A stretch of DNA of 34,693 bases. Source: a virus. Taxonomy: Duplodnaviria > Caudoviricetes. Positions 9,070 to 27,513 of the stretch are shown here, in pieces. The notes below the pieces were generated by a model that was not told the origin of the DNA, made no database searches, and worked only from the letters and a program-made list of their open reading frames with translations. The position numbers and the translations under genes were made by a program. Numbering within the stretch: position 1 is the stretch's first letter; each line of letters begins with the position of its first letter. The stretch lies in the IMG/VR virus record IMGVR_UViG_3300044262_000043, positions 1 through 34,693 of that record. One strand, given 5' to 3'.

Positions 9070-9399
9070 TCAGCCCTTGTCAACCGGGGTGCCCAGCACC
9101 AGCCGCATCACGCTTGCAACTGACCCGCTGGTCACATTGACGTCATCGCTGACGCCGGTGATGGCCTGCACGCCTGAGCCCAGATCGGCATCCGCCGTGA
9201 CGGTGATGCGCGCCACGCCCGGCGCCACCGTGTCCACCACGGCACTCATGCCATCGGCCGCCGGGGTGACGGTCAATACGGTCTCGTCGGACGAGGCCCA
9301 CGCCGGCACGCCATCGACGACCGCTGGACGGCCCTTGGCGTCTTCGATCTGCAGCACTACGTTGTCGAACTTCTGGTCGGTGGTGATGTTCTCTGCCAT
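9070..9399 (-). CDS. Ig-like (Big_2-type) single-domain protein
   Basis: WASSDETVLTV...VAPGVARITVTAD motif of bacterial Ig-like domains. Confidence 0.75.
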   Translation of the reverse strand: MAENITTDQKFDNVVLQIEDAKGRPAVVDGVPAWASSDETVLTVTPAADGMSAVVDTVAPGVARITVTADADLGSGVQAITGVSDDVNVTSGSVASVMRLVLGTPVDKG

Positions 9400-9411
9400 G
9401 TCGATCCCTTC

Positions 9412-9816
9412 CTATTTGCCCGCTACGGGCTTGTCAGTCGGTGTCCCCAGTGAAATGCTGACTTTCGCGGCCGGGGGAATCGCCACGAAACCTGCCGCAG
9501 CGGCGTCATCGGCCGCGCCTTCCTCTGCAAGCTCTTCCATCAGCACGACCGACAGTTCCATCGGCGGAATCGCCGGAAAACCGTCGTCGTTCTCAAGGAT
9601 TTCCATCGCGCCATCGGCCGCAAACTGCGCATTGCGCGCCGCAACCAGCTTGGCATGCCGATCCAGCAGGAATTCGAGCCGAATCTGGTAGGCCGCCTTC
9701 AAATCGGGCGAGATTTCGTCATTCAAACGGTGCCGGCAGCCGCGAATCTGCGGTTCGACCGCATCCAGACCGTTGCTGAAGGCTAAAAACCGCTCGGAAA
9801 CCGAATCGATGGCCAT
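9412..9816 (-). CDS. Hypothetical helical protein with C-terminal LGTPxDK strand
   Basis: 134 aa, GAGGGA RBS, co-oriented with the Ig gene. Confidence 0.7.
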   Translation of the reverse strand: MAIDSVSERFLAFSNGLDAVEPQIRGCRHRLNDEISPDLKAAYQIRLEFLLDRHAKLVAARNAQFAADGAMEILENDDGFPAIPPMELSVVLMEELAEEGAADDAAAAGFVAIPPAAKVSISLGTPTDKPVAGK

Positions 9817-11352: not shown

Positions 11353-11529
11353 ATGCGGCATTCCGTCGAAGTGATGACGTGCGACGCAGTGAACTATTTG
11401 CGCGTCGAAGATGTGATCGCCATGCTGGAAGCGACGGCTGACGACCAGAAGCAGATCATTTTCAACCTGCGACGGATGAATCTGGTCGATGTGAACACCA
11501 CGCTGCCCTTCTCCGTGAGCCTGCACTGA
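11353..11529 (+). CDS. Small hypothetical protein (58 aa, not in ORF track)
   Basis: MRHSVEVMTCDAVNYLRVEDVIAMLEATADDQKQIIFNLRRMNLVDVNTTLPFSVSLH fills the TerL-portal gap and has a TGATG overlap with the portal. Confidence 0.7.
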   Translation: MRHSVEVMTCDAVNYLRVEDVIAMLEATADDQKQIIFNLRRMNLVDVNTTLPFSVSLH

Positions 11530-13688
11530 TGGCCGACAAGGACGTTCTAGACGAGGCTTTCGAGCAGTTCTCCATTTCCCAAGAAGGCGACGACCACAAC
11601 CGTCAGGCGGCCAAGGAAGACATTGCCTTCGCGCGGCTGGGCGAGCAGTGGCCGGACAAAATCCGCGAAGACCGGGTGCGCGAGAGCCGCCCGATGCTGA
11701 CCATCAACCGCATGCCGTCGTTCGCGCGGCAGGTGGTCAATGACGCCCGACTGAACAAGCCGACGATCTCAGTGCGCCCCGCCACCGGCGGCGCCAACGT
11801 GCTGACCGCCAATCTGTTCGATGGGCTGATCCGGCAAATCCAGAACCAGTCATCTGCCGGCATTGCGTACGACACCGGAATGGAGTCAGCCGTCTATGGC
11901 GGCTTTGGCTACTGGCGCGTGGACGTCGATTACGCCTACAACGACAGTTTCGACCTCGACATCATGATCCTGCCGGTCGAAAACGCCCTGTCGGTGTATG
12001 GCGATACGCTGGCCGGCGGCGCCGACAGCCGCGACTGGAACTTTGCCTTCCTGATCGACGACATGCCGCGCACTACGTTTGAGCGGCTCTATCCGGGCTC
12101 GGACATCAGCGACTTCGATACCAACGACAGCAAGATGGTCGGCTGGATCACCGAAAAGACGGTGCGCGTGGGCGAATGGTGGAAGCGCGAGCCGGTCAAG
12201 AAGATCATCGTCAAGCTGAGCAACAACCAAGTGATCGACCAGACGGTCTACTTGGCCAACAAGCCGGTGTGGGACGTGCAGAACGTCACGGTGACCGGGG
12301 AGCGCGAAACCAAGTCGCACAAGGTGACGCACCGGCTGATGACCGCTACCGACGTGCTGGAAACCAACCCGTGGAAGGGTTGCTACATCCCGATCATCCC
12401 GGTCTATGGCGACGTCATCAACGAAGAGGGCAAGCGCCACTACCGCAGCCTGATCCGCGACGCCAAAGACCCGCAACGCATGTTCAACTTCTGGCGCACC
12501 GCCGCCACCGAACTGGTGGCCTTGGCGCCGCGCGTGCCCTACATCGGCGCGCGGGGATCGTTCAACACCGACGCCGAGAAGTGGGCCAACGTCAACCGGC
12601 ACTCGTACTCGCACATCGAATATGACCCGGTGCCGGGCATGCCGCCGCCGCAGCGCCAGCAACTGGACGGTGGCGTGGCCGCCGGCGCGCTGCAGGAAGC
12701 CATGAACGCTTCCGACGACATGAAGTCGGTGATGGGCCTCTTCGACGCCAGCTTGGGCGCCAAGAGCAACGAGACCAGCGGCCGCGCCATCATGGCCCGG
12801 CAGCGCGAAGGCGACGTCAGTACCTTCCACTTCATCGACAACCGCGACCGTGCCATCGAACACACCGGGCGCATTCTGGTGGACCTGATCCCGCACATCT
12901 ACACCGGCGAGCGCGTGGTGACGGTGCTGTCGGAAGACCTGAAGGAATCGCAGGTGCCGCTCAATCAGGAAATCCCGATTGGGCCGAACCCGAACAACCC
13001 GGCCGAGACCATTTCGCACGTCTTCGACCTGACCGCCGGCAAGTACAGCTTGGTCATGAAGAAGGGCCTGTCCTACACGTCCAAGCGTGAGGAAGCAGCC
13101 GCGCAGATGATCGAATTCGCCAAGGTGACTGGCAGCGGCCAGCTATTCGGTGACGTGATCGCCAAGAACATGGACTGGCCGGGAGCCGACATCATCGAAC
13201 AGCGCATCCTCGCGTCGTTGCCGCCGCAGATCACCGGCAAGGGACCGACCCAGAAAGAGCAGGAAATGGAAGCGATCCTGAAGCAGATGCAGGCTGCGCT
13301 GGAACAGTTGCAGCAGGGCATCGCCATGAAGGATCAGGAAATCGCGCAGTTGAAGGCCGACAAGGAAGTGGCGCTGCGTGAGCTTGACGTGAAGGAAAAG
13401 GAAATCAACGTCAAGGAAAAGGAAGTGCTGGTCAAGGACAAGCAGGCCGACAACCAGTTGATCGCCGCTGTCAAGGAAGAAGAGGACAGCGCTAACGAAG
13501 CCGCCAGCGGTGGCGGCAAGAACACGGATGCCGCGCTCTCGATGCTGCAGAACCAGATCGGCCAGATCATGCAGGCCGTATCGCAGCCGAAGCGCAAGGA
13601 AGGACGCGCCATCAAGCAACCAGACGGAACATGGAAGCTTACGGCCGTGGAAGTGCCTGCGATGGGGTCGCAGGAAAACGCAGCCTAG
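11529..13688 (+). CDS. P22-like portal protein
   Basis: G.QWP, RPMLTINR, GFGYWRV, IPIIPVYG, AKDPQRMFN, SNETSGRAI.ARQ motifs and a long C-terminal coiled-coil barrel. Confidence 0.95.
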   Translation: MADKDVLDEAFEQFSISQEGDDHNRQAAKEDIAFARLGEQWPDKIREDRVRESRPMLTINRMPSFARQVVNDARLNKPTISVRPATGGANVLTANLFDGLIRQIQNQSSAGIAYDTGMESAVYGGFGYWRVDVDYAYNDSFDLDIMILPVENALSVYGDTLAGGADSRDWNFAFLIDDMPRTTFERLYPGSDISDFDTNDSKMVGWITEKTVRVGEWWKREPVKKIIVKLSNNQVIDQTVYLANKPVWDVQNVTVTGERETKSHKVTHRLMTATDVLETNPWKGCYIPIIPVYGDVINEEGKRHYRSLIRDAKDPQRMFNFWRTAATELVALAPRVPYIGARGSFNTDAEKWANVNRHSYSHIEYDPVPGMPPPQRQQLDGGVAAGALQEAMNASDDMKSVMGLFDASLGAKSNETSGRAIMARQREGDVSTFHFIDNRDRAIEHTGRILVDLIPHIYTGERVVTVLSEDLKESQVPLNQEIPIGPNPNNPAETISHVFDLTAGKYSLVMKKGLSYTSKREEAAAQMIEFAKVTGSGQLFGDVIAKNMDWPGADIIEQRILASLPPQITGKGPTQKEQEMEAILKQMQAALEQLQQGIAMKDQEIAQLKADKEVALRELDVKEKEINVKEKEVLVKDKQADNQLIAAVKEEEDSANEAASGGGKNTDAALSMLQNQIGQIMQAVSQPKRKEGRAIKQPDGTWKLTAVEVPAMGSQENAA

Positions 13689-13697
13689 GGGGAAGTC

Positions 13698-13904
13698 ATG
13701 GAGCAGGAGCCGCTAATCTTCACGTCAAAAGGCAACGTCCCAATCGCCACCTTGACCTACGAGCATAGCTGGAACTTCAGCAACGAAGCTGTCACGTTCA
13801 CCGAAGTGTGGCGTGACGAAACGGGTGCGATTGTGAAGAACAATACGCACATGTACGCAATCAAGGGGATGCCGCCAATCGGCGGTCAGCAATTCACTGC
13901 CTAG
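13698..13904 (+). CDS. Small virion-associated beta protein (fibre island)
   Basis: 68 aa, GGGGGA RBS, C-terminal IKGMPPIGGQQ resembles the island repeat. Confidence 0.7.
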   Translation: MEQEPLIFTSKGNVPIATLTYEHSWNFSNEAVTFTEVWRDETGAIVKNNTHMYAIKGMPPIGGQQFTA

Positions 13905-13919
13905 TGGCGGAGGGATCAA

Positions 13920-14375
13920 GTGGCTAACAGTCAAGCAATCTGCACCAGCTTCAAAGTCGAACTGCTGAAGGGCATCCATGCCCTCGGCACGACCGTCGTG
14001 CGCGGAGCGACCACCAAGGACACCATCAAGGCGGCGCTGTTCCTCGCGTCGGCCTCGCGTGGTGCTGGCGATACGGTCTACAACACGACCGGCGAAGTGA
14101 GCGGCACCAACTACACCGCTGGCGGCGTCACCGTCACCAACGGCACGGAGCCGACCAGCACCAGCACGACAGCGCACTGGACGCCGAGCGCGTCGATTTC
14201 GTACACCACGGTGACGCTTTCCACGTCCTTTGATGCGGTGCTGCTCTACAACAGCACGCAGGGCGACAAGGCCATCGCGGTCTACACCTTCGGCGCACAG
14301 ACGATCACGGCTGGCACGTTCACGCTGACGATGCCGACCAATGACAATGTGACCGGACTGCTGCGACTGGCCTGA
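13920..14375 (+). CDS. Small Thr-rich beta-sandwich virion structural protein (putative repeating fibre subunit)
   Basis: SFKVELL...IKAAL...EVSGTNYTAGG...LLYN...FG...TAGTFTL pattern widespread in uncultured phages. GGAGG RBS, strongly biased codons. Confidence 0.7.
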   Translation: MANSQAICTSFKVELLKGIHALGTTVVRGATTKDTIKAALFLASASRGAGDTVYNTTGEVSGTNYTAGGVTVTNGTEPTSTSTTAHWTPSASISYTTVTLSTSFDAVLLYNSTQGDKAIAVYTFGAQTITAGTFTLTMPTNDNVTGLLRLA

Positions 14376-14380
14376 TGTAA

Positions 14381-17200
14381 ATGGCTGGCGGTCAATCAGC
14401 CAGCTTTGGTCAAGGGTCAGTCAGCGAAGTAACGACCGTTGCACTGGCCGGTAGTGCCATCACTGGCACATCCGGCGATGTTACGGTCCCGAGTCTGCCG
14501 GTCGATGTTGCGGCTACGGGCAGTGAAGCGGTACTGGCGGCGGGCAGCGTCGCCAATAACGTCCACTTCATTCGCCTGCGCTCGCGCAAGAGCGGCAGCG
14601 GCACGGCCACCTTTGAGCTAGCGGGTCTCAGCTTCCCTTCCGGCGTTGGCACGGCGGCGGTTGCACACGTGTCGCCCATCAGCGGTCAGGCCATCCTGTC
14701 GCTGCAGGGCTCATTCGGCAAGACGCGCACGCGCGCCCTTGGCGGCACGCAGGTGGTCATTGCCCAGACCAACGTGATCAGCGGCAGCACGCAGCCGTGG
14801 ACGATTGGCGACATCACCTTCGTGCAGGGCGTGCCGCTCGACGTGCAACTGTCGGTGCCGTCGAACTACCTGCTGGGCGGCACCTTCGATGTGGTCGGCT
14901 CGCTGCCCAATGGCGTGACGATGACCCCGGGCGGGCTGGTGCAGTACAACGGCAGCGGCCTGCCCACCAGCGTCGTGGTGCAATTCGGCTATACCGAGCC
15001 TGCGCAGACCGGTGCGCTGCCGGTGCTGACGGTGTACCCGAATAATTCGGGCACCTACCCGTACATGGCGAGCGTGTTCCCGCTGGAAGGCGCCGTTCCG
15101 GCCGGCAAGTTCTTGGTCAGCCCGAACGACAGCACGCTGCGCAGTTCGACGATTTCGACCTACCCGGACGGCAGCGCGCGCGTCATGGTGGTGGCCGGCA
15201 CCAAGGCCATGACGGCGACCGTCGAGCAGACCTTGAACCTTGCCGTCAGCACCAATGAAGCGGCCGGCACGCCACTGACGACGGCTGCCATTGCCGCGCG
15301 CTTCACCAGCGGCATCACGGTCAACTTCCCGCCCAACAGCAGCGGGCCGCAGACGCTCAGCAATTTCTCTAACCCGCACCGTATCTGGTGGGCCAACAGC
15401 CAAGTGATCTGCGCGCGCTACCGGCTGCCCTGTGGCCTTGGCGTCATGGAAGCGCAGATCGACGTGCATGCCTTCGCCACGGGCCACACGTTCGTTGAAA
15501 TCGTGGTCGAAAACGGCCAGATCAATACCGCGCTTGCCACGCCGCCCACGCTGCCGGGACCGAGCCGGATGTACTACACCGGTGCCACGTTCGTCATCAA
15601 CGGCACGAACGTCGCTACTGTCAACATGCCGGCTGGTGGGTCTTACTTCACCACCAACACGCATGAGAAGTTCCGTGCCTATTACGTTGGCGCGTGGATG
15701 AATCAGGCTAACATCGCCACGCCAATTCGTGGCACGTCCGATCCGTTCGTCGAGGTCACGCACGACGTGACGCATATGCAGGCGCATCCGATCTGGCCGG
15801 GTAAGCATGCGCGCGCCAAGACGCACAACCCAACGCTTCCACAGTCCAATGATCAGGGCTATGCGCGACCCGGTGTTGCCACGATAAATCAGGCTTACAC
15901 CAACGACTTTTATCAGCCATGGGATATCGGGCGTTACCGTCCAACTTCGATGGGATCGTCCGGGCTGATATCGCAGTTGATCTGGGAAGAATGGCGTTAC
16001 GTGCAAGGGCCGGATCGCCATACGCGCCGCGCAGTACTGGCAACGTCGCTGGGCTATCTCAGCTACTACATCAACTACCGCGACGCCAATGGGGATGTGC
16101 CTTCGTTTACGCAACTCAATGGCAGGTTCAGAAACACGTATGGCTACCTGCCGTATGAAACTGGCGTCCAGCCTGACTACGCCATCAATCACACCGGAAG
16201 TCAGGGCTTGATGGGCTTCCTGTGCCAGCCGTCGCCATGCTTCATTGAGCTAATGCAGAAGAAGTGCGTCTGGGATGGCACGCAGCAAAGCTCCACGCCG
16301 ATTCTGTATTCCGCACAGGCCGGCGGTGGGGCGCGTTGCTGGGCGTGGTACATACGCCATTTGAATCACGCCATCTTTGCAACGCCTGATGGGCATCCGT
16401 GGAAGGCCAGCGGCGAGAACGCGCTGTACCAGCAGCTTTATCACCTTGACGCATTCCGTCGCAACGGCAACTGCAAGCTCAATGTGCTGAGTTTTGAAAG
16501 TCCGACGCGGCAGACCGATCAGCGGCCAACGACGCAGAACGGCTCTCCGAATACGGGCGGCACGCTGCAGTTTGAAGTTGCCTTCTGGCAGCACACATGG
16601 ATTGTGGCCGAGGTTTACAAGGGTCATAACAGCAAAATCCTCAGCGATGCCACGCGCCGCGCTGATCACAAAGTGTTTAACGACTGGTTGCTGACCGGCG
16701 CCATCCGCATGGTCAACGAGCAGGCGCACACCGGCGGCTGGCGCTATCAGAACCAGTATCAGGTCATCGGCTCGCGCGGCGCGGAAGAAACTAATTGCGA
16801 CGGCATCGCAGACGGCCTGTACCCATACTGGAACGGCTCTGACTTTGGCTCCTATGAGACTTGGGATTTGATGGCGCAAGGTTTCTACTCTGACTATCCG
16901 CCGCCAGAAGGGCCTGCCGGTAATTGGATGGACAACCCGAACACCAGCGCGGCCACGGGCGCGCTGATGGGCACCTACGCATCGCATTCGCCTGTCACAT
17001 TGTCGGGCGGCGCAAGCGGATCGTACTGTGAGGGGGTATGGCCATGGATGGTCTATGCGGTTGAATCCGATCTGCCGGGAGCGGCGCAGATGTGGACCAC
17101 GATGCGTGCCAACCTGCCTAACTTGGGTACTTATATAAACGGCTGGGCCTTCTACGTTGAAAACGGTGTCTGGCCGCGCAATAAACCTCTGGACATATAG
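14381..17200 (+). CDS. Large putative receptor-binding/depolymerase protein (N-terminal repeats, Ig-like domain, helical catalytic-like domain)
   Basis: About 6 LxGxxIxxxxG repeats, LPNGVTMTPGG Ig motif, aromatic-rich C-terminus with RCWAWYIR. Confidence 0.6.
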   Translation: MAGGQSASFGQGSVSEVTTVALAGSAITGTSGDVTVPSLPVDVAATGSEAVLAAGSVANNVHFIRLRSRKSGSGTATFELAGLSFPSGVGTAAVAHVSPISGQAILSLQGSFGKTRTRALGGTQVVIAQTNVISGSTQPWTIGDITFVQGVPLDVQLSVPSNYLLGGTFDVVGSLPNGVTMTPGGLVQYNGSGLPTSVVVQFGYTEPAQTGALPVLTVYPNNSGTYPYMASVFPLEGAVPAGKFLVSPNDSTLRSSTISTYPDGSARVMVVAGTKAMTATVEQTLNLAVSTNEAAGTPLTTAAIAARFTSGITVNFPPNSSGPQTLSNFSNPHRIWWANSQVICARYRLPCGLGVMEAQIDVHAFATGHTFVEIVVENGQINTALATPPTLPGPSRMYYTGATFVINGTNVATVNMPAGGSYFTTNTHEKFRAYYVGAWMNQANIATPIRGTSDPFVEVTHDVTHMQAHPIWPGKHARAKTHNPTLPQSNDQGYARPGVATINQAYTNDFYQPWDIGRYRPTSMGSSGLISQLIWEEWRYVQGPDRHTRRAVLATSLGYLSYYINYRDANGDVPSFTQLNGRFRNTYGYLPYETGVQPDYAINHTGSQGLMGFLCQPSPCFIELMQKKCVWDGTQQSSTPILYSAQAGGGARCWAWYIRHLNHAIFATPDGHPWKASGENALYQQLYHLDAFRRNGNCKLNVLSFESPTRQTDQRPTTQNGSPNTGGTLQFEVAFWQHTWIVAEVYKGHNSKILSDATRRADHKVFNDWLLTGAIRMVNEQAHTGGWRYQNQYQVIGSRGAEETNCDGIADGLYPYWNGSDFGSYETWDLMAQGFYSDYPPPEGPAGNWMDNPNTSAATGALMGTYASHSPVTLSGGASGSYCEGVWPWMVYAVESDLPGAAQMWTTMRANLPNLGTYINGWAFYVENGVWPRNKPLDI

Positions 17201-17202
17201 CC

Positions 17203-19107
17203 ATGGCCCGCGTCGTCAGCAACAACGTCACCGTCACTGTGCAGAGTAATGCGCTGCCGGCATGGCTGCCCACGCGCGGCAAGTTCTCTGATGGCCAGCA
17301 GCCCAATGGCAACGTCATGCTGGCCAGTGCTATCGATCCCGACAAGTGGATGGAAGATGGCACGCCGCAGGTGTATGCCGGCCGTCCATTTGGCGGCTCG
17401 CAGGGCGACTTCGACAACGTGTGGAAGCAGCAGAACGGCGGCGACATCAATTACGAAATGGGCCAGTACGGCACCTTCTTCCTGTTTGGTGGTGGCCACT
17501 TCGCCTACAACGGTTGCACCGTCATCACCTACGACATCGGCACCGGAACGTGGGACACCCTCACCTACCCGCCCTATGCCAATGCGGAAAAGAAGATCAT
17601 CAACGGCTCGGTGGCCAACCTGACCGGCACGGTAGTCACGCTACCTGCCAGCGAGGACAACAACCTCGTCGTCAACAAGATTGGTGCGTACTACAAGTAC
17701 ATGGACTACACCTACATTCCGGGTGCAGGCACCGATCCGAATGGCACCGACTGCCCGCTTGAGGGGCCGGGGCTGTTTCCATATCCGATCCACTCCAACT
17801 GCGGCATCCAAATCCTGCCATCGGACGCCGGCGGCGGGCCAAAGGGTTCATTGCTCATTTGCGGACATGATCAGACCGGGCTGACCATTCCATCGGGACC
17901 GGCCCACATTTTCAGGCTCGATTGCGATACCAAGATATGGTCGCGGACATCACTGCCGCTCACCATGGTGTACTCGACGCCGGCGCTGAGCTACGACCGC
18001 AACCGCAAGCTGATGTGGTACTGGCCGGCTGGCGGCACGTGGGGGTTTCGCCCTGTAGCGCTGGACTATCGCAACGATTACCTGAACCCTGCCTATCACC
18101 GGCCGACCAGCAGCACGCCATCGTGGTCCAACTATTTGACGATCCCGCTCTACATTCCATCGCGTGACATTTTCATCTCGCTGGATGGGCAGACTACGCC
18201 TTTCTATAACGACGGCATGTTCCGCGTTCCGCGCCTGCTGGTGGCGCCGTTGTGGGGATATCAGTTCGGTAACTCGACGGCAATCAACTTCACGGCGGTG
18301 ACGACCAATCCGACGTCGGCTTACTACCGCGACCAGATATGCAAGGGGCTGGATACCGGCTGGCCCGGCTATCGCGCAGCACCGACACAGGGGCAGACCG
18401 ATAGCGACTACTGGAAGGGCGGCAGTGATAGCGGCAATTTGATTGCGGGCGGTTCGTTCGGGCCGCGACCGTCCACTTATCGCGGCACGTATACCGCGAA
18501 TGCCGCCACCGATGAATTGACCCTGAATGGCAGTCTGTCTGGTGTCACGGTGGGCGCGCGCGTGTTCTTTGGCCGCGTCAACTTTGTGTCGCAAGAAGCC
18601 GTTGGCACGATGACTGGCGGCATCGTCGAAGGCAAGTACTACGCTGTCCAGTCAATCACGGGCAATGTGATCAAGCTGAGGGTCTCGGAAGGCTCTTCGG
18701 TCACGCTCGATATCACCAGCAACGACGGCGGCGAATACTGGATTCACGACGGCAAGATTCGCGGCGCGCAGGACAAGCTGGAATGGTGCGAAGACACCGA
18801 TTCGGTGTTCTTCATCGAACGGCATGCCGGCACCGAGAACAACGTGCCGCGCGCCCAGCAGCAGACGCTGGTGCTGTGGCACCTGTGGATGCCGCCGGTC
18901 GGGCAGGAATTGACTGGCACGTGGACATGGGAAAGAGAAGTGCTGACGCCGATGCCCAACTGTGTCGGCGCCGCCATATCAAACCTTGGCGACATGCCCG
19001 CATGGGGCGGCAAGACCAAGTATGTGAAGGCGCTGAAGTGCGCGTACTACACCGACCGCGACATCCTGCCGGTGCAATTCATCAAATCGAAGTACTGGCC
19101 CGTTTAA
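17203..19107 (+). CDS. Putative beta-propeller (Kelch-like) receptor-binding protein
   Basis: FLFGGGH..Y...YDIGTGTW, RLDCDTKIW and YDRNRKLMW blade motifs. Confidence 0.6.
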   Translation: MARVVSNNVTVTVQSNALPAWLPTRGKFSDGQQPNGNVMLASAIDPDKWMEDGTPQVYAGRPFGGSQGDFDNVWKQQNGGDINYEMGQYGTFFLFGGGHFAYNGCTVITYDIGTGTWDTLTYPPYANAEKKIINGSVANLTGTVVTLPASEDNNLVVNKIGAYYKYMDYTYIPGAGTDPNGTDCPLEGPGLFPYPIHSNCGIQILPSDAGGGPKGSLLICGHDQTGLTIPSGPAHIFRLDCDTKIWSRTSLPLTMVYSTPALSYDRNRKLMWYWPAGGTWGFRPVALDYRNDYLNPAYHRPTSSTPSWSNYLTIPLYIPSRDIFISLDGQTTPFYNDGMFRVPRLLVAPLWGYQFGNSTAINFTAVTTNPTSAYYRDQICKGLDTGWPGYRAAPTQGQTDSDYWKGGSDSGNLIAGGSFGPRPSTYRGTYTANAATDELTLNGSLSGVTVGARVFFGRVNFVSQEAVGTMTGGIVEGKYYAVQSITGNVIKLRVSEGSSVTLDITSNDGGEYWIHDGKIRGAQDKLEWCEDTDSVFFIERHAGTENNVPRAQQQTLVLWHLWMPPVGQELTGTWTWEREVLTPMPNCVGAAISNLGDMPAWGGKTKYVKALKCAYYTDRDILPVQFIKSKYWPV

Positions 19108-19116
19108 GGAATCATC

Positions 19117-20484
19117 ATGGCGAACCTGCACGTTCTTTCCACCGGCAGCAACACCGCGCCCTATGACACGTGGGCCAAGGCCGCTACTGCACTGTCCACG
19201 GCGACCACGGCCGCTGCGGCGGGCGATACGATCTTCGTCAGCAACGCGCACACCGAGACCGCCGCCGGCCAGACCATCACATTCACCAACGGCACGCAGG
19301 CGCAACCGATCTACGTGATTTCCGGTGTGCCGGACACCACCAGCAACATCACGTCGCGCACGGTAGGCGGCGAAGTGAAGTCGAGCAACACGACTTTCCT
19401 GATCAATGGCGGCGCGGCCTACATCTACGGTATGAAGTTTGAATGTACCAGTGCCACGTCCACCCAGTTTTCGTTTGCCGGCAGCGCCAGCAGCAATCAC
19501 ATGTATGACGCCTGCGTGTTCACGCATTCCAGCACCGGTAGCAGTGGTCGCATCGTGTTTGGTCCGACTAGCACATCCTCTGCGTTCCCGCAGGTGACGC
19601 TGAAGGGGTGCAGTTTCAAGTTCTCGCATGCTTCGCAGAGCATCATTGTCAACGCGCACATGCGCATGATTGGCGGCAGCTTCATCAGCGGCACCAATCC
19701 GACTGCGGTGTTCTCGCTTGGCGAGAACGGTCGCGGCGGCATTCTGAATGCGACCGGCGTGGACTTTTCTGCCAACATCGGCACGTCGTTCAATATCTTC
19801 AATTCGGCCACCAGCGCATCGACGCAACTGGGCCGGGTGCGCAACTGCAAGATGCCGTCGTCATGGACTGGCCGCGCCATTGCGGTCAACAAACCTGACA
19901 ACGGTGGTTCGCGCTTTGAACTGCTCAACTATGGCGACACCGACACCAACTACCGTTTCATCACGGCGGACTCCATGGGGGTCTGCAAGGAAAGCGTGGC
20001 GGTCTATCGCACCAGTGGCGCGCAGGACGAGGCGACCCAGTATTCGATTGAGATGGCCAGCACCGCCAACGTCAGCCATCCGCACTGCGCGCTGCGCTCG
20101 CCGCCGATCATGATCCGGCAGGAAGCGGTGCCGGGCGGCGCCACGCGCACCGTCAAGGTCGAAATCGTGCATGACGGCGCATCGGCCCTGACCAGCGCGC
20201 AATGCTGGCTGGAAGTCGAGTTCTTGGGCACTTCGGGTTATCCGATTGCGACCCTTGCGCACGATACCGTCGAGGCATTGCAGTCGGGCGCGGCACAGGC
20301 ATCAAGTTCCGAGGCGTGGACCGGCGACAGTGGCACCGGCCCGAATGGCAGCACCACATGGAATACGCTCAAGCTGGAAGTGCCTTCGCTGGTATTTGAG
20401 GAAACCGGCTACGTGATCGCCACGGTTTGTTTGGCGGCGGCTTCGACCACGATCTACGTCGATCCGAAGATCACGATCAGCTAA
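19117..20484 (+). CDS. Right-handed beta-helix tailspike-like protein
   Basis: APYDTWAKA...AAAGDTIFV capping motif, then Ser/Thr/Asn beta-helix rungs and a C-terminal IYVDP sandwich. Confidence 0.7.
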   Translation: MANLHVLSTGSNTAPYDTWAKAATALSTATTAAAAGDTIFVSNAHTETAAGQTITFTNGTQAQPIYVISGVPDTTSNITSRTVGGEVKSSNTTFLINGGAAYIYGMKFECTSATSTQFSFAGSASSNHMYDACVFTHSSTGSSGRIVFGPTSTSSAFPQVTLKGCSFKFSHASQSIIVNAHMRMIGGSFISGTNPTAVFSLGENGRGGILNATGVDFSANIGTSFNIFNSATSASTQLGRVRNCKMPSSWTGRAIAVNKPDNGGSRFELLNYGDTDTNYRFITADSMGVCKESVAVYRTSGAQDEATQYSIEMASTANVSHPHCALRSPPIMIRQEAVPGGATRTVKVEIVHDGASALTSAQCWLEVEFLGTSGYPIATLAHDTVEALQSGAAQASSSEAWTGDSGTGPNGSTTWNTLKLEVPSLVFEETGYVIATVCLAAASTTIYVDPKITIS

Positions 20485-20493
20485 GGGGCAGCC

Positions 20494-20679
20494 ATGGCCA
20501 CCAAGCAATTCCTTGTCACGACGTGGGGCGCGATTGTTGGCGAGACCAACAACTTCGAGGCGGTGGCGCCGTTTGGTTTCGTGATCAACGAAAGCCAGAG
20601 CGGCCTGACTACGCTCGGCGGCTCGGCCATCACGCCGCAAAGCGGCACGGCCGTACCGCTGTTCCTGATCCCACTTTAG
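20494..20679 (+). CDS. Small adaptor-like protein with one island repeat
   Basis: 61 aa, PFGFVINES then LGGSAITPQSG. Confidence 0.65.
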   Translation: MATKQFLVTTWGAIVGETNNFEAVAPFGFVINESQSGLTTLGGSAITPQSGTAVPLFLIPL

Positions 20680-20685
20680 GCGTCC

Positions 20686-22254
20686 ATGGCAGGCGGCCAG
20701 TCATTCAGCAGCGCCGCCGGCTCACTGGGCCGGGTGGTGACGGTCGCCTTGTTTGGCTCGGTCATCGGGCTATCGCAAGGCAATGTCACGCCCAGTAATC
20801 CCACGGTCGGGGATCGCACATCGGCGTTGAATTCCAGCGGCACGCTGGCCATTGCCAGCAGCGGCATCCTGAGTCGGCAACTGACGTTGCCTATCGTCAA
20901 TCCGGTCATGGCGGCGCACCAGCATGCGGTGGGCGCCGACTGGGGCCCGATGGCGATCATCAGCGAGGAAACCACCTATAGCCTGCTGACGCCACAGGGC
21001 CGCTTCGTGCAGGAAGCGCGCGAACTGACCGGTGGCAGCGGCCCGGGCATGACGGTGGGCCAGACCACGCCCACGGTGCTGAACCTGCAGCCGGCGCTGA
21101 CCGGCATGCAGATCAGTGGTGGCACCGGCGTGATCGGGCCGCAAGGCGCCCCGGTGACAGTCAACATCACCGGCGAGGAAATCGAATTCTTCACCGGCGA
21201 CGTCAACGCCAACCAGTTGAGCGGGCAGGGCATGACGTCGGCGCAGGGCGCCTTCGCCAAGTCGCTTGGTGGCATCACGCTCGTCGGCCAGTCGATGAGC
21301 ATGACGCACGGCATTGTCTCGGCCAACCTTGAGGCTGATGACAATGTGTACATCACCGCACAGGCCGGCATTGCGCCGGTGCTGTTCGACATCACGCTCA
21401 CCGGGCAGGAAATCCTTGGCGGGCAGACGGCGCCGCTGATACTGGGCGACGTCGAGGCGGTGCTGACCGGGCAGGAAATCACGCTCGAAACCAACGCCCA
21501 GATCGGCATTGGCGTATCGATTGATGGGCAGGAAATCGTCACCGGCCAGTACCCGGTCGGCGCCCCGGGCTACGGCCAACTGGTCGGCCAGTCGATGACC
21601 GCCTTTGCCGGCCGCATCTACGACACCGAGGACCGCGACGCCGCACTGGTCGGCATCGAAGTCGCCGTGCAGGCCGGGGCCACCTTCGCCTCGCCGGTCT
21701 GCTTCTACACCGGCCAGACCATCACCTGCGAGCAGCAGGGCATCGGTCCGCGCGTGGTGGACATCTTTGGCGAATCGATCCAGATGTCGCAGGGCTACCT
21801 GCTGCCGCCCGGTGTGGCGCAACCACTGGGTGGCGGCGGCGGCTACCGCAAGCGCTGGCCGCGCCATGCGCGCTTCATCTACACGCGCATTCCGTCCGAA
21901 GAGGAAGTGCTGGCCGAACGCGAGCGCATGGGCATCCTGCCGAAGCGCACGCAGAAGTTCATTCAGGCGGCCGTCAAGAAGGCATCCGACGTATCCACCC
22001 GGATACAGGCGTCGGCACTGCTGCCGGCCTACCTGCAGGAAGCCAAGCAGCGCGATCTGCTGGGTACGCTCAAGCAGCAGGCCGAGGGCGAGGGCGTGCG
22101 CTGGACCGACGACATCTTCCCGATCAGCCAAGCGCTGATCATCGATTCGCTGCACCGCAAGGCCGATGGGCCACTGCTGAAACAACTTCTTGAGGAAGAA
22201 GCGGCCGAGCAGGCCGAAATAGACGAAATCCTAGAACTATGGATGGAACTTTAA
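20686..22254 (+). CDS. Repeat-array virion protein (putative fibre template/ruler) with charged C-terminal anchor
   Basis: About 18 copies of a ~20-aa LxGQxIxxxxG motif, then GGGGG-YRKRW and a helical acidic end (EEEAAEQAEIDEILELWMEL). Confidence 0.65.
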   Translation: MAGGQSFSSAAGSLGRVVTVALFGSVIGLSQGNVTPSNPTVGDRTSALNSSGTLAIASSGILSRQLTLPIVNPVMAAHQHAVGADWGPMAIISEETTYSLLTPQGRFVQEARELTGGSGPGMTVGQTTPTVLNLQPALTGMQISGGTGVIGPQGAPVTVNITGEEIEFFTGDVNANQLSGQGMTSAQGAFAKSLGGITLVGQSMSMTHGIVSANLEADDNVYITAQAGIAPVLFDITLTGQEILGGQTAPLILGDVEAVLTGQEITLETNAQIGIGVSIDGQEIVTGQYPVGAPGYGQLVGQSMTAFAGRIYDTEDRDAALVGIEVAVQAGATFASPVCFYTGQTITCEQQGIGPRVVDIFGESIQMSQGYLLPPGVAQPLGGGGGYRKRWPRHARFIYTRIPSEEEVLAERERMGILPKRTQKFIQAAVKKASDVSTRIQASALLPAYLQEAKQRDLLGTLKQQAEGEGVRWTDDIFPISQALIIDSLHRKADGPLLKQLLEEEAAEQAEIDEILELWMEL

Positions 22255-24582: not shown

Positions 24583-25425
24583 ATGTCCAAGCTGGGCGAC
24601 AAGAGAAAGAAACAAGCCGCACCATCCGCAGTACCCGCACCACGATCCCTGCACGCTTACGTCTGCACCCCGGCCTACGATGGCAAGGTCGAGTGCAACT
24701 ACTCCCAGTCCCTCGCTGAAGCCGCATTCTGTGCCCCGCTGCATGGCGTGCGCATGACCGCCGGCGTCATGGGCAACGGTGCCTTCATCGATCTGGCGCG
24801 CAACATCTTCGTCAAGCGCTTCCTTGAGGAATTCACCGACTGCACGCATCTGTTCTTCATCGATGCCGATCTGCGCTTCCAGCCCAATGCCTTCATCGGC
24901 CTGCTGAAAGCCAACCTGCCGGTGAGCGCGGGTGTCTACCGGCGCCGGCAGGAGCCCGAGGAATACCCGTTCCGTGCGGTGGACAACCCGAATGGCGGCG
25001 GCCTGTGGTTCGTCGAGGACTGGCTGCAGTGCGACCGGGTGCCGACCGGGTTCCTGTGCATCCGCCGCGACGTGCTGACCGAGATGGCGGCCGATGCGCC
25101 CAAGATATTCATCCACGGCAACGGGCTGGTGCCATGGGTGTTCCATACCGAGTTTGAGGGTCCGGGGCTCGCCAAGCTGCAGGAGCGCTACGGCCTGTCG
25201 GACGAATTCATCCGCGACTACGGCAAGTGGCTGCCGTTGGACGACAGCAAGTTCATCGGTGAGGACTTCGGCTTCTGCAACGACTATCAAAAGAAGTACG
25301 GCACGCCAATTCCGGTGTGGACCAACTTCGACTTCATTCACGGGGGCTACGCATGCAATCTGTTCAACTGGCTGACGCAGGAAAAGGACAAGATGGACGC
25401 GGCGGCGACCAGCCAAGCGGCCTGA
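24583..25425 (+). CDS. GT-A fold glycosyltransferase
   Basis: VCTPAYDG, IDLARN, THLFFIDAD (DxD), TGFLCIRR and GEDFGFC motifs. Confidence 0.85.
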   Translation: MSKLGDKRKKQAAPSAVPAPRSLHAYVCTPAYDGKVECNYSQSLAEAAFCAPLHGVRMTAGVMGNGAFIDLARNIFVKRFLEEFTDCTHLFFIDADLRFQPNAFIGLLKANLPVSAGVYRRRQEPEEYPFRAVDNPNGGGLWFVEDWLQCDRVPTGFLCIRRDVLTEMAADAPKIFIHGNGLVPWVFHTEFEGPGLAKLQERYGLSDEFIRDYGKWLPLDDSKFIGEDFGFCNDYQKKYGTPIPVWTNFDFIHGGYACNLFNWLTQEKDKMDAAATSQAA

Positions 25426-25426
25426 C

Positions 25427-25954
25427 ATGAGCGAACTGCTGATCGGCTGTGGCAACGACCGCCGCAAGAAGGTGTCGTTCGCGGATTCGCCCACGGAATG
25501 GACCGAACTGACCACGCTCGACGTGGACCCCAGTTGCCACCCGGACGTGCGCCACGACCTGAACAAGCTGCCCTACCCGTTCCTGCCCAACACGTTCGAC
25601 GAAATCCATGCCTACGAAGTGCTGGAACACTGCGGCCGGCAGGGCGACTACAGGTTCTTCTTCGCCCAGTTTGACGAATTCTGGCGCATCCTGAAGCCGG
25701 GCGGCTATTTCATCGGCAGCGCGCCGATGTGGGATTCGATGTGGGCATGGGGCGATCCCGGCCATACCCGGATCATCACCAAGGGCTCTTTGGTGTTCCT
25801 GAACCAAAAAGAGTACGAGCAGGTGGGCACCACCGCCATGACCGATTACCGGCGCATTTACAAGGGAAACTTTGAAACATGCGGCATCGTCGAGGAAAAT
25901 GACAACTTCGGCTTCGTACTGCGTGCAATTAAGGATGCCGCGCCGCACAAATGA
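25427..25954 (+). CDS. Class I SAM-dependent methyltransferase (small-molecule/glycan type)
   Basis: LLIGCG, LDVDP, HDLNKLPYPF...FDEIHAYEVLEH, WRILKPGG, WGDPGH. No DNA-MTase DPPY/PC motif. Confidence 0.85.
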   Translation: MSELLIGCGNDRRKKVSFADSPTEWTELTTLDVDPSCHPDVRHDLNKLPYPFLPNTFDEIHAYEVLEHCGRQGDYRFFFAQFDEFWRILKPGGYFIGSAPMWDSMWAWGDPGHTRIITKGSLVFLNQKEYEQVGTTAMTDYRRIYKGNFETCGIVEENDNFGFVLRAIKDAAPHK

Positions 25955-26055: not shown

Positions 26056-26706
26056 ATGGCCATCGCCAATTATTCCGATCTGCAATCCGCAGTACTGGCA
26101 TGGGTAGTCAGGACCGGCGACACCGAGTCCACTACCCGGGTGCCCGACTTCATTCGGCTGTTTGAAGCGGAAGCCAACCGGCGCATCCGCGTGCGCCACA
26201 ACATGACCACCACGGCCCTGACGCTGACGTCAGGCACGTCGGCCGTCACCCTGCCCGCCGGTTTCCTTGAGGAAATCGAACTCAACTACACCGACAACGA
26301 CGCCCGGCTGTCGCGCGCCTCGTTCGACACCATCGACCGTGCCCGCAATGTGCTGCAGCCGACCGGGCAGCCGGCGCTCTATGCGATCAGCGGAACGCAG
26401 ATTCTCTTTGAGCGCAGTGCTGATGCCGACTATGCGCTGCTGCTGCGCTACTACGCCGCGTGGGACATTGCCAGCGACACCACCAACTGGTTGCTGACCT
26501 ACGCCCCGGATGCCTACCTGTTTGGCGCGGTGGCCGAAGCGGCTATGTTCGTGCGCGACGACCAGTTGCTGAGCATGGCAATGCAGCGGCGTGATGCCGC
26601 GATCCGCGAAATCCTCAACGCCGACCACCGCAACAAGAACCGCCTGCTGTCGGTCGATAACGCGCTGCAGGCGGGTGGTTCCTACGACTACAGGAGTGAC
26701 CGCTGA
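26056..26706 (+). CDS. Head-to-tail adaptor protein
   Basis: MAIANYSDLQSAV..W..R, PDFIRLFEA...RRIR, TNWLL..APDAYLFGA pattern. Confidence 0.85.
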   Translation: MAIANYSDLQSAVLAWVVRTGDTESTTRVPDFIRLFEAEANRRIRVRHNMTTTALTLTSGTSAVTLPAGFLEEIELNYTDNDARLSRASFDTIDRARNVLQPTGQPALYAISGTQILFERSADADYALLLRYYAAWDIASDTTNWLLTYAPDAYLFGAVAEAAMFVRDDQLLSMAMQRRDAAIREILNADHRNKNRLLSVDNALQAGGSYDYRSDR

Positions 26707-26999
26707 TGGGACTCGAAACCGGCACCTACATTTCGTCGCTCAACTCGTCCAACCCGGTAGTGGGTGACGCCAAGACCGAAGGCGACGATCACATCCGGCT
26801 GATCAAGGCGACGCTGCTGGCGACCTTCCCGAACATCACCGGGGCAGTGACGCCGACGCACACGGAACTGAACTACGTCGATGGCGTGACCAGTGCGCTG
26901 CAGACGCAGATCGATGCCAAGTACTCGACATCGAAGATCACGATTTCCACCAGTGCGGCCAGTGGCGGCGCTGACAAAGACATCTGGATTCAGTACTGA
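26706..26999 (+). CDS. Short tail fibre (virion-attachment domain)
   Basis: MGLE...NP...EGDDHIRLIK..L..TFPNI and ELNYVDGVTS..QTQID motifs of podophage fibre N-termini. Confidence 0.75.
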   Translation: MGLETGTYISSLNSSNPVVGDAKTEGDDHIRLIKATLLATFPNITGAVTPTHTELNYVDGVTSALQTQIDAKYSTSKITISTSAASGGADKDIWIQY

Positions 27000-27000
27000 C

Positions 27001-27513
27001 ATGGCGTTTTACATCAAGGATGGCAGCACGTGGCGCCAAGCCAAAAACGTCTATGTGAATAACGGCGGCACATGGCGCACGGCCAAAACAGTCTGGTGCA
27101 AGGATGGCTCGACGTGGCGCGCATCGTGGATGTTCAACGGCGCCCTGACGATTGGCTCGACGCCTTACATCTATGGCTGGGATGCCGGCCCGGTAGGCAA
27201 CTACACGCCGGCCAATGACTACAGCGGGGTTTACCGCCTGTTTCGCTGCAACTTCTATGAAAGCGGCTATGTCGGCGCGCCAAAGACCAGCATAGGCATT
27301 TATCGCAACGACTCCGGGCAGATGACCGGAATCACCAAGACCAATCTGTGGAAGGACGCCTATATCGTTGGCGGCAATTCGGTCAGCGCTGCGGCAGCGA
27401 GCGATTTCGTCAACTTTGGCACTTCGTGCGTATGGGAGTGGTATTCGGGTGATCACTTGAACCTGAAGGCCAACAACGGCAACACGATCCAACTTCAAGT
27501 GACCGGCATATAG
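27001..27513 (+). CDS. Fibre-tip adhesin (Trp-repeat attachment domain)
   Basis: Start at ATG 27001, three (K/N)(D/N)G(S/G)TWR repeats then an aromatic beta domain. Confidence 0.7.
   Translation: MAFYIKDGSTWRQAKNVYVNNGGTWRTAKTVWCKDGSTWRASWMFNGALTIGSTPYIYGWDAGPVGNYTPANDYSGVYRLFRCNFYESGYVGAPKTSIGIYRNDSGQMTGITKTNLWKDAYIVGGNSVSAAAASDFVNFGTSCVWEWYSGDHLNLKANNGNTIQLQVTGI

What the first reader, a model, noticed from the sequence alone, without database searches (positions are those of the whole stretch)
13698..22254. Seven-gene fibre island between portal and scaffold, linked by a shared ~20-aa docking-strand motif (candidate template-built modular fibre)
Seen: portal and scaffold, adjacent in P22, are separated by 8.5 kb of 7 co-oriented genes. 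A motif (L/I)xG(Q/S)x(I/M)xxxxG recurs about 18 times in the 522-aa protein, about 6 times at the N-terminus of the 939-aa protein, once at the C-terminus of the 61-aa protein (LGGSAITPQSG) and loosely in the 68-aa protein (IKGMPPIGGQQ). The 939- and 522-aa proteins start alike (MAGGQSASFGQGSV..VTTVALAGS vs MAGGQSFSSAAGSL..VVTVALFGS). The 151-aa protein has no such repeat and looks like a highly expressed small beta-sandwich. Inference: each repeat is a donor beta-strand completing one copy of the 151-aa subunit, so the 522-aa protein acts as ruler/anchor of a beads-on-a-string fibre. Three different receptor-binding heads (helical enzyme-like, propeller, beta-helix) would plug in through the same motif or small adaptors, giving a plug-and-play, possibly branched appendage in addition to the normal tail fibre.
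Basis: partly seen in the sequence, partly recalled or inferred. Interest (0 to 1): 0.88.

Follow-up and report, generated by a model that had tools for sequence, protein, structure and literature searches.

The report
Phage rope-and-bead fibre with split-repeat connectors
This uncultured short-tailed phage carries a seven-gene block that likely builds a "beads on a rope" fibre of a recently solved kind, and three of its proteins end, start or break off exactly in mid-repeat, which would let them plug into one another to form a branched fibre tipped with predicted sugar-cutting or sugar-binding heads.

Summary
Largely confirmed. Seven genes lie between portal and scaffold. The ~20-aa repeat is real in the 522-aa (14 clear units), 939-aa (5-6) and 61-aa (1) proteins, but not significant in the 68-aa one. 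The 151-aa protein (PHROG 644) folds like the beads of GP4 fibre I and the Bas63/Sf14 whiskers (Z 7-9). A predicted complex lays one repeat across a bead dimer (0.78 vs 0.02). Repeat arrays accompany the bead gene in 40/45 loci, and in 0/77 bead-less portal loci. The beads-on-a-rope design is published (GP4, VP1, Bas63, A1002), and this scan has met it on other DNA (59 notes).

New here is a split repeat. Five small proteins stop on the Leu of the next unit, 17 ropes begin with the remaining half (x-G-G-Q...G), and 15 cargo ropes carry that Leu internally, then a basic linker. The window has two such plugs and two sockets. This predicts a Y-branched fibre: anchor rope, then a PL26-lyase-like cargo, then a 61-aa adaptor holding a beta-helix head. 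The junction is inferred from sequence only. New variant of a known kind.

The parts
11529..13688 (+). Flank: P22-type portal protein (719 aa)
   Evidence: PF16510 E 1.2e-169, phrog_156
13698..13904 (+). 68-aa small protein; dedicated partner of the bead gene, role open (possible cap or assembly helper); no significant full repeat
   Evidence: Family found in 71 loci, all with a bead gene, mostly directly upstream of it; motif not significant
13920..14375 (+). 151-aa bead subunit (PHROG 644): N-terminal helix plus beta-sandwich, predicted to bind the repeat as a dimer
   Evidence: phrog_644 E 7e-11; AlphaFold2 pLDDT 95.6; Z 9.3 to GP4 fibre I 8jou_a, 7.9 to Bas63 9mt4_K, 7.3 to Sf14 9c39_K; complex score 0.78 vs 0.02
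14381..14422 (+). 939-aa protein, residues 1-14: N-terminal half-repeat lacking its leucine (inferred socket)
   Evidence: Anchor Gly at residue 4, next unit 20 residues on
14423..14785 (+). 939-aa protein, residues 15-135: short rope (anchor Gly 24, 47, 82, 102, 122)
   Evidence: residues 15-62 used
14558..14620 (+). 939-aa protein, residues 60-80: internal Leu66 in repeat register followed by the basic linker RSRKSGSG (inferred internal plug, branch point)
   Evidence: Leu at +18 or +19 from the previous anchor Gly in 14 of 15 homologous breaks; invariant in alignment A4
15011..17200 (+). 939-aa protein, residues ~211-939: PcRGLX/PL26 exo-rhamnogalacturonan-lyase-like cargo (predicted fold); preceded by an Ig-like stretch judged by eye at ~138-207
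   Evidence: Atlas feature score 0.96 to PF19501-bearing clusters (15-38% of members), TM 0.57-0.76 to PcRGLX-like models; no Pfam hit
17203..19107 (+). 634-aa Kelch-like beta-propeller protein (predicted); no repeat; attachment unresolved
   Evidence: Atlas TM 0.65-0.74 over Kelch targets, low-confidence model with pLDDT 0.54; only itself found
19117..20484 (+). 455-aa right-handed beta-helix with a C-terminal CBM-like sandwich (tailspike/pectin-lyase fold); no repeat
   Evidence: AlphaFold2 pLDDT 88.7; Z up to 18.9 to pectin methylesterase/lyase helices; tailspike and CBM hits
20494..20679 (+). 61-aa likely adaptor: N-terminal double motif of the kind that follows beta-helix homologues, one full repeat (Gly43) and a C-terminal Leu in register (inferred plug)
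20686..21801 (+). 522-aa protein, residues 1-372: N-terminal half-repeat (inferred socket) and main rope with 14 recognisable units
21823..22254 (+). 522-aa protein, residues ~380-522: Gly/basic patch and helical domain ending in an acidic-hydrophobic tail (inferred virion anchor)
   Evidence: Homologous to the L005 rope end (E 1e-42); similar tails on ropes in L010-type, L137, L208, L248, L269
22269..23231 (+). Flank: head scaffolding protein (320 aa)
   Evidence: phrog_3927 E 1.3e-15

Best explanation
The island likely encodes a GP4-type chain-like virion fibre in which dimers of the 151-aa protein are predicted to clamp ~20-residue repeats one by one, and in which separate rope proteins would be joined end to end and at a branch by repeats split between two chains. 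Shown in sequence: the repeats, their register, the half-repeat starts and the in-register C-terminal and internal leucines. Predicted: the bead fold and the bead-dimer/repeat interface, with the repeat's Leu in a pocket of one monomer. Inferred assembly: the 522-aa rope is anchored to the particle by its C-terminal helical domain and carries about 14-18 dimers. Its N-terminal half-repeat would share a dimer with the internal Leu66 strand of the 939-aa protein, whose chain would then leave through the basic linker into a three-dimer side arm ending in the PL26-like enzyme. The 939-aa N-terminal half-repeat would be completed by the C-terminal Leu of the 61-aa adaptor, which would hold the beta-helix head by its N-terminal double motif. 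Which plug goes into which socket cannot be told from sequence; self-chaining of the 939-aa protein is also possible. The likely function is binding and degrading host or biofilm polysaccharide at a distance from the short tail. The propeller and the 68-aa protein are probably parts too, by links not established.
For: Fold: Z 9.3, rmsd 2.8 over 114 residues to GP4 fibre I; Z 7.9 to the Bas63 connector chain; Z 7.3 to the Sf14 neck chain. Complex of 2x151-aa with 939-aa residues 15-62: score 0.78, best control 0.02, contacts agree >=85% between runs, partner pLDDT >=58; the mark was met by 116/157 solved and 2/215 mismatched pairs. Only partner residues 1-23 touch, at the same surface on both copies. 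Co-occurrence: arrays in 40/45 viral and 26/29 metagenome bead loci with >=3 kb downstream, against 0/77 bead-less portal loci and 1/2 portal loci with a bead. Same gene order (bead, rope, phrog_4137 collar) in GP4 and in Roseobacter phage CRP-345, whose bead is PHROG 644. Period 20 in the GP4 325-aa protein (z 6.1) and weakly in the KPP25 rope (z 2.6); A1002 has 226 rope residues for 11 dimers (PMC13730344). Split register: in intact ropes the next Leu is 18 residues after the anchor Gly in 563/786 cases. 4/6 proteins with a terminal motif end on Leu at exactly +18, plus L174. 17 proteins start with the Leu-less half. The internal Leu before the basic linker is at +18 in 10/15 and +19 in 4/15. 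Adaptor: 16 of 29 non-window beta-helix homologues are followed by a gene starting with a double motif (picked by eye); a profile of these ranks the 61-aa protein first among 358 window ORFs. L259 has three tandem beta-helix genes and a rope with three copies of that motif.
Against: No sequence similarity between the 151-aa family and GP4 gp80 (hhalign probability 0.5%; E 0.14), and they fall in different PHROGs (644 vs 240). The best VIA hit overall is a 1031-aa baseplate chain of Klebsiella phage KP1 (Z 12.2), so the fold also serves elsewhere; Z 7-9 is near the tool's stated background. The complex pass may reflect likeness to solved bead-rope structures and used my own alignments. The split junction itself was not modelled. 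The register counts come from related phages and are not independent. The co-occurrence matrices were trained on ropes from the bead loci, and the two bead sets share contigs; 5/45 and 3/29 bead loci had no array. The adaptor profile hit is weak (E 0.069). In L005 the anchored rope does not start with a half-repeat, so the model needs internal sockets there; these are only suggested (short Leu-less units 8/25 vs 21/533). No phrog_4137 collar gene was found in this 60%-complete record, and that search also rang in no control. No virion or expression data.
Confidence: 0.6

Rival explanations
1. Same rope-and-bead chemistry but no branching. The 939-aa and 522-aa proteins are separate linear fibres, and the conserved basic stretch is itself an anchor (to capsid, portal or the acidic tail of the 522-aa protein), a kink, or a protease site that frees the enzyme. 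The half-repeat starts are merely how ropes of this clade begin.
For: The basic stretch is strongly conserved and resembles the Gly/basic patch before the anchor of the 522-aa protein. All solved systems described in the passages I read are linear. L005 lacks an N-terminal socket on its anchored rope.
Against: Does not explain why five small proteins with different N-terminal parts stop on the in-register Leu, four of them right before a gene that starts with the missing half, nor why three cargo ropes have the same Ile-Gly-Leu before the linker as the adaptors' C-termini. Cleavage would release a fragment that still carries three repeats and has no anchor.
Confidence: 0.25
2. The adaptor/rope pair is a fissioned or read-through single gene: the register is a relic, or the two are made as one chain by stop-codon readthrough.
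For: In L071, L067 and L271 the docking motif and the rope are one protein. The adaptor-rope junction is in frame in 3 of 4 loci.
Against: The stop codons differ (TAG, TGA, TAA) and L172 is out of frame. The same half-repeat start is reused on cargo ropes that follow the bead gene, out of frame in 3 of 4 cases. The internal Leu plus linker cannot come from fission.
Confidence: 0.08
3. The repeats fold by themselves (beta-solenoid or triple beta-spiral shaft) and the 151-aa protein is an independent baseplate, collar or decoration subunit.
For: The bead model is confident alone (pLDDT 95.6) and its best VIA match is a baseplate chain. 8 of 74 bead loci with long flanks show no array. I did not fold the array alone.
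Against: Complex prediction far above controls; arrays absent from 77 bead-less control loci; single and half repeats could not form a solenoid; gene order shared with GP4.
Confidence: 0.05

Closest known systems
Fibre I of Ralstonia podophage GP4 (gp80 dimers on a separately encoded rope; PDB 8JOU; Zheng et al. 2023, PMID 37660940, not read, known from PMC13730344 and PMC12609058)
   Same: Bead fold (Z 9.3), separate rope gene, ~20-aa period in the gene after gp80 (that this gene is the rope is my inference), podophage.
   Different: No detectable bead sequence similarity; five dimers against ~14-18 units; GP4 anchors through an Ig-like collar, the window through an acidic helical tail (inferred); as described in the passages read, one rope and no enzyme heads or split repeats.
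Chain-like fibre of Pseudomonas podophage A1002 (gp40/gp41 dimers on nozzle-rope gp39; PMC13730344)
   Same: Dimers form an augmented beta-sheet with the rope; about 20 residues per dimer (residues 243-468, 11 dimers); a globular domain ends the rope.
   Different: Two bead types and a rope fused to the nozzle; a single chain per fibre; its KPP25 homologues fall in phrog_3758 and phrog_8123.
Whisker/collar of Felixounavirus Bas63 and Sf14 (PDB 9MT4, 9C39; PMC12609058, PMC11821841)
   Same: Incomplete beta-sandwich dimers 'as beads on a string' with the rope in their grooves; bead fold (Z 7.9, 7.3); genes listed right after the portal gene in Sf14.
   Different: Myophages; two dimers per rope; rope fused to the collar; no cargo.
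Neck fibre of cyanophage A-1(L) (gp82-gp81-gp80; PMC10966104)
   Same: Bead-chain appearance with a carbohydrate-binding tip.
   Different: Trimers joined head to tail with no template rope; a different mechanism.
Branched tailspike complexes such as CBA120, and cellulosome scaffoldins (recalled, not tested)
   Same: Several glycan-active heads displayed on one scaffold through docking modules.
   Different: They use folded docking domains, not a repeat split between chains inside a bead dimer.

Membership tests
GP4/Bas63/A1002-type rope-and-bead chain-like fibre | Bead of ~110-170 aa with N-terminal helix and gp80-like beta-sandwich | tested here: met
   Model and VIA Z 9.3 (rmsd 2.8, 114 aligned) to 8jou_a, 7.9 to 9mt4_K; Foldseek E only 0.06
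GP4/Bas63/A1002-type rope-and-bead chain-like fibre | Bead sequence homologous to a solved bead (gp80, gp40, gp41) | tested here: not met
   hhalign probability 0.5%; hmmsearch E 0.08-0.5; no PDB sequence hit; different PHROGs. The solved beads also sit in different PHROGs from each other, so this limits family-level, not architecture-level, membership.
GP4/Bas63/A1002-type rope-and-bead chain-like fibre | Genetically linked rope with ~20-aa period | tested here: met
   Spacing 20 or 22 dominates in homologous loci; 40/45 and 26/29 co-occurrence against 0/77
GP4/Bas63/A1002-type rope-and-bead chain-like fibre | Rope strand lies in grooves of a bead homodimer | tested here: met
   Prediction only: score 0.78 vs best control 0.02, same surface on both copies; may reflect likeness to solved complexes
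GP4/Bas63/A1002-type rope-and-bead chain-like fibre | Attachment at neck or tail through an Ig-like collar or a fused structural protein | tested here: inconclusive
   phrog_4137 not found in a 60%-complete record and no control rang; present in CRP-345; the window's rope ends in another kind of tail
GP4/Bas63/A1002-type rope-and-bead chain-like fibre | Fibre visible on virions | not testable with these tools
   Uncultured phage; no virion data found for cultured PHROG 644 carriers
A-1(L)-type template-free bead chain | Trimeric beads joined head to tail without a rope | tested here: inconclusive
   Trimers were not modelled; tight linkage to repeat arrays and the dimer-repeat model point away from it
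PL26 / PcRGLX exo-rhamnogalacturonan lyase (939-aa cargo) | RIFT barrel, beta-sandwich and helical toroid with conserved catalytic residues | tested here: inconclusive
   Fold-level Atlas match; no Pfam hit; catalytic residues not examined
Right-handed beta-helix tailspike/pectin-lyase fold (455-aa) | Parallel beta-helix | tested here: met
   Z 18.9 to 1xg2_A and many others; activity and trimer state not tested

The most novel reading that the evidence does not exclude
A universal plug-and-socket built from a repeat split between two chains lets one bead protein splice separately encoded ropes into a branched, cellulosome-like tree of swappable glycan-active heads on the virion; phages of this clade exchange heads simply by exchanging genes that start or end in mid-repeat.
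Probability: 0.45. Interest if true: 0.8.

Novelty: new variant of a known kind. Interest (0 to 1): 0.62.

Why it matters
Solved rope-and-bead fibres, as described in the papers I could read, are single linear ropes of 2-11 dimers. If split repeats join chains, the same chemistry gives junctions and branches. That would explain how these phages swap large enzyme heads (lyase-like, apiosidase-like, beta-helix, propeller) while keeping a bead that is often over 85% identical. It would also give a likely structural role to PHROG 644, an abundant family of unknown function (at least 7,960 homologues) that includes cultured marine Roseobacter and Pelagibacter phages where it can be tested. A two-chain peptide junction locked by one small dimer would also be a simple protein-assembly part. 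The junction can be tested with three small recombinant proteins.

Tried and rejected
Pfam/PHROG scans named none of the island proteins except the bead. PDB sequence searches with the bead, its profile and the GP4 325-aa protein gave nothing significant. A-1(L) neck fibre was my first lead and was dropped: no template. The 68-aa motif failed the full-motif test. A truncated-motif score was raised in its family (13/53 at >=5 against 2.5% of 1,433 control ORFs) but only 3.5 in the window, so no role is claimed. Homologue searches for the 522-aa tail and the 634-aa N-terminal part returned only the window's own proteins. A profile of propeller domains from relatives did not pick out the 634-aa protein (E 2.5). 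The idea that its N-terminal strand completes an Ig-like domain of the 939-aa protein rests on two cases and no Pfam match and is kept as a lead only. Stop-codon recoding was rejected: the TAG-ended 939-aa gene is followed out of frame and homologues start with their own Met. Two locus searches with alignments were not possible for lack of a conserved block. The genome collection gave only 4 loci, which I did not analyse separately. Literature searches for a branched or split-repeat version, or for PHROG 644, found none, nor did two searches of the scan's notes. The GP4 and VP1 papers were not read and no supplements were opened, so a description there cannot be excluded.
Full report
Setting. 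The window is a whole virus record of 34,693 bases, linear and about 60% complete. It has a terminase, P22-type portal and coat, an SU10-type adaptor and DNA-ejection-type genes, consistent with a podophage. Seven co-oriented ORFs (68, 151, 939, 634, 455, 61, 522 aa) fill 13698-22254 between portal and scaffold, with GC and GC3 like their neighbours. A close relative (L005) has an island at the same place with partly different middle genes, and L111 has a smaller one.

The motif. A matrix trained on relatives only finds 11 units in the 522-aa protein (shuffle mean 2.0) and strong units in the 939- and 61-aa proteins, but nothing significant in the other four. Pooled scans give 14 recognisable units in the 522-aa protein and 5-6 in the 939-aa one. 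The family consensus, from 568 repeats in 57 proteins, is roughly V-A-L-T-G-V-x-A-T-G-A-V-G-T-L/V with spacing 20 (389 cases) or 22 (101). The window's repeats are diverged and score poorly on that wider matrix.

The bead. The 151-aa protein belongs to PHROG 644. It has at least 7,960 homologues and matches 9 phage records, mostly Roseobacter and Pelagibacter phages. Its model (pLDDT 95.6) matches GP4 fibre I (Z 9.3), a Bxb1 tail-tip chain (8.2), the Bas63 connector (7.9) and the Sf14 neck (7.3); the top hit of the wide search is a 1031-aa baseplate chain (12.2). Sequence similarity to GP4 gp80 is not detectable.

What is published. PMC13730344 (abstract, text parts 2-3, sections 11-12 read) describes 11 fibre dimers forming augmented sheets along the rope of A1002, and five dimers on a separately encoded rope in GP4. 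PMC12609058 (passages) describes Bas63 whisker dimers as beads on a string with the rope completing incomplete sandwiches. PMC11821841, PMC10966104 and PMC12796354 were seen as passages; PMC13419713 is held as a short record and had no hits. The GP4 and VP1 papers were seen only as citations.

Linkage. Arrays occur in 56/80 viral and 44/80 metagenome bead loci, and in 40/45 and 26/29 when at least 3 kb lies downstream of the bead. Among 79 loci found by the portal (the duplicate of L005 left out), none of the 77 without a bead has an array, and 1 of the 2 with a bead has. The matrices were trained on bead loci and the sets overlap, so the positive rates are optimistic. GP4 and CRP-345 share the order bead, repeat protein, phrog_4137 collar, which ties PHROG 644 to the GP4 cassette. 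The GP4 repeat protein has period 20 (z 6.1).

Binding model. Two beads with residues 15-62 of the 939-aa protein scored 0.78 against a best control of 0.02 (mark met by 116/157 solved and 2/215 mismatched pairs; contact agreement >=85%, partner pLDDT >=58). Only partner residues 1-23 make confident contacts, on the same surface of both copies, and Leu22 has the best-defined contacts, with bead residues 107, 122, 136, 139 and 147. So one repeat spans a dimer, in line with about 20 residues per dimer in A1002. The pass may reflect likeness to solved complexes.

Split repeats (new, inferred). In intact ropes the Leu of the next unit lies 18 residues after the anchor Gly in 563/786 cases. Three features share this register. 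(a) Plugs at C-termini: 4 of 6 ORFs with a motif near their stop end on Leu at exactly +18 (window 61 aa, L005, L168, L172), as does L174; their N-terminal parts vary from about 40 to 250 aa. (b) Sockets: 17 proteins, including the 522- and 939-aa ones, start with x-x-G-G/N-G-Q...G, a unit lacking the Leu, and the next full unit follows 20-23 residues later in 14 of them. Four of the five plug genes are directly followed by a socket gene. (c) Internal plugs: 15 cargo ropes have Leu at +18 (10), +19 (4) or +26 (1, probably mis-anchored), followed by a basic, Gly-rich linker that replaces a 20-residue unit with about 14. The window and L172 each have two plugs and two sockets. Where an N-terminus is occupied by another domain (L004, L005, L168, L174), short Leu-less internal units appear that could be internal sockets (8/25 vs 21/533). 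The simplest reading is that a bead dimer splices two chains and that the internal plug makes a Y-junction. These phages are related, so the counts are not independent, and the junction was not modelled.

Heads. Residues 210-939 resemble PcRGLX/PL26 lyase-like proteins. Equivalent cargo ropes in relatives carry an apiosidase-like domain (L006, E 2e-63) or a weakly matched beta-helix (L003), so heads are swapped while the rope is kept. The 455-aa protein is a beta-helix with a CBM-like end. In 16 of 29 non-window homologues the next gene starts with a double motif, chosen by eye. A profile of it ranks the 61-aa protein first among 358 window ORFs, though weakly (E 0.069), and L259 pairs three beta-helix genes with three copies of the motif. 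The 61-aa protein therefore looks like the tip of a rope split off as an adaptor. The 634-aa protein is a Kelch-like propeller with no repeat; its link is open. The 68-aa family occurs in 71 loci, all with a bead; its role is open. The 522-aa tail resembles acidic-hydrophobic tails on other ropes; anchoring and its site are inferred.

Verdict. Rope-and-bead fibre about 0.9 likely; the full model with split-repeat junctions about 0.6; true branching with swappable heads about 0.45. No branched or split-repeat version was found in papers or in the scan's notes, while the general design appears in 59 earlier notes. New variant of a known kind; interest 0.62.

Noticed in passing
L259:6637-14042: Three tandem beta-helix paralogues followed by a 1089-aa rope of another repeat type (A-x-L-x-E-x-x-D-x-L) with three internal copies of the beta-helix docking double motif.
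   Followed up: partly
window 17203-17250 and L005:7693-7760: Both propeller-like genes that follow the PL26-like cargo start with R-x-x-S-x-x-x-T-(V/I)-T-V, like the last strand of an Ig domain; the cargo's Ig-like stretch seems to lack such a strand. Two cases only.
   Followed up: partly
L078:11671-12570 and L079:3169-4536: A second bead gene (a distant PHROG 644 member; a phrog_8123 member like A1002 gp41) sits near the first, followed by a rope with a different repeat, suggesting bead-specific rope motifs.
   Followed up: partly
L108:4920-5417: 165-aa gene between portal and scaffold with the acidic-hydrophobic tail but no bead gene or array in the locus; possibly the anchor module on its own.
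   Followed up: no
L077:10001-11127; L023, L028, L038, L043, L057: Two bead paralogues in one locus.
   Followed up: no
rope C-termini in L022, L039, L060, L001; L023, L028, L074, L076; L010, L044, L111: At least three interchangeable rope endings: R-x-V-x-V repeats before a collar gene, (I/V)DD-x-Q-T-P-x-W repeats, and the acidic-hydrophobic helix.
   Followed up: partly
window 24583-25954: Two genes between coat and adaptor: a 280-aa phrog_1574 protein that looks by eye like a glycosyltransferase, and a methyltransferase (PF08241); possible virion or fibre modification.
   Followed up: no
window 9070-9816, minus strand: Two ORFs opposite in direction just upstream of the terminase; the 109-aa one is Ig-like by eye, with a weak tail-protein hit (phrog_14417, E 0.007).
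   Followed up: no
window 26706-27513: Short tail-fibre-type genes (97 aa, phrog_6465; ~170-206 aa) in the ordinary tail region, so the island would add to a small normal fibre.
   Followed up: no
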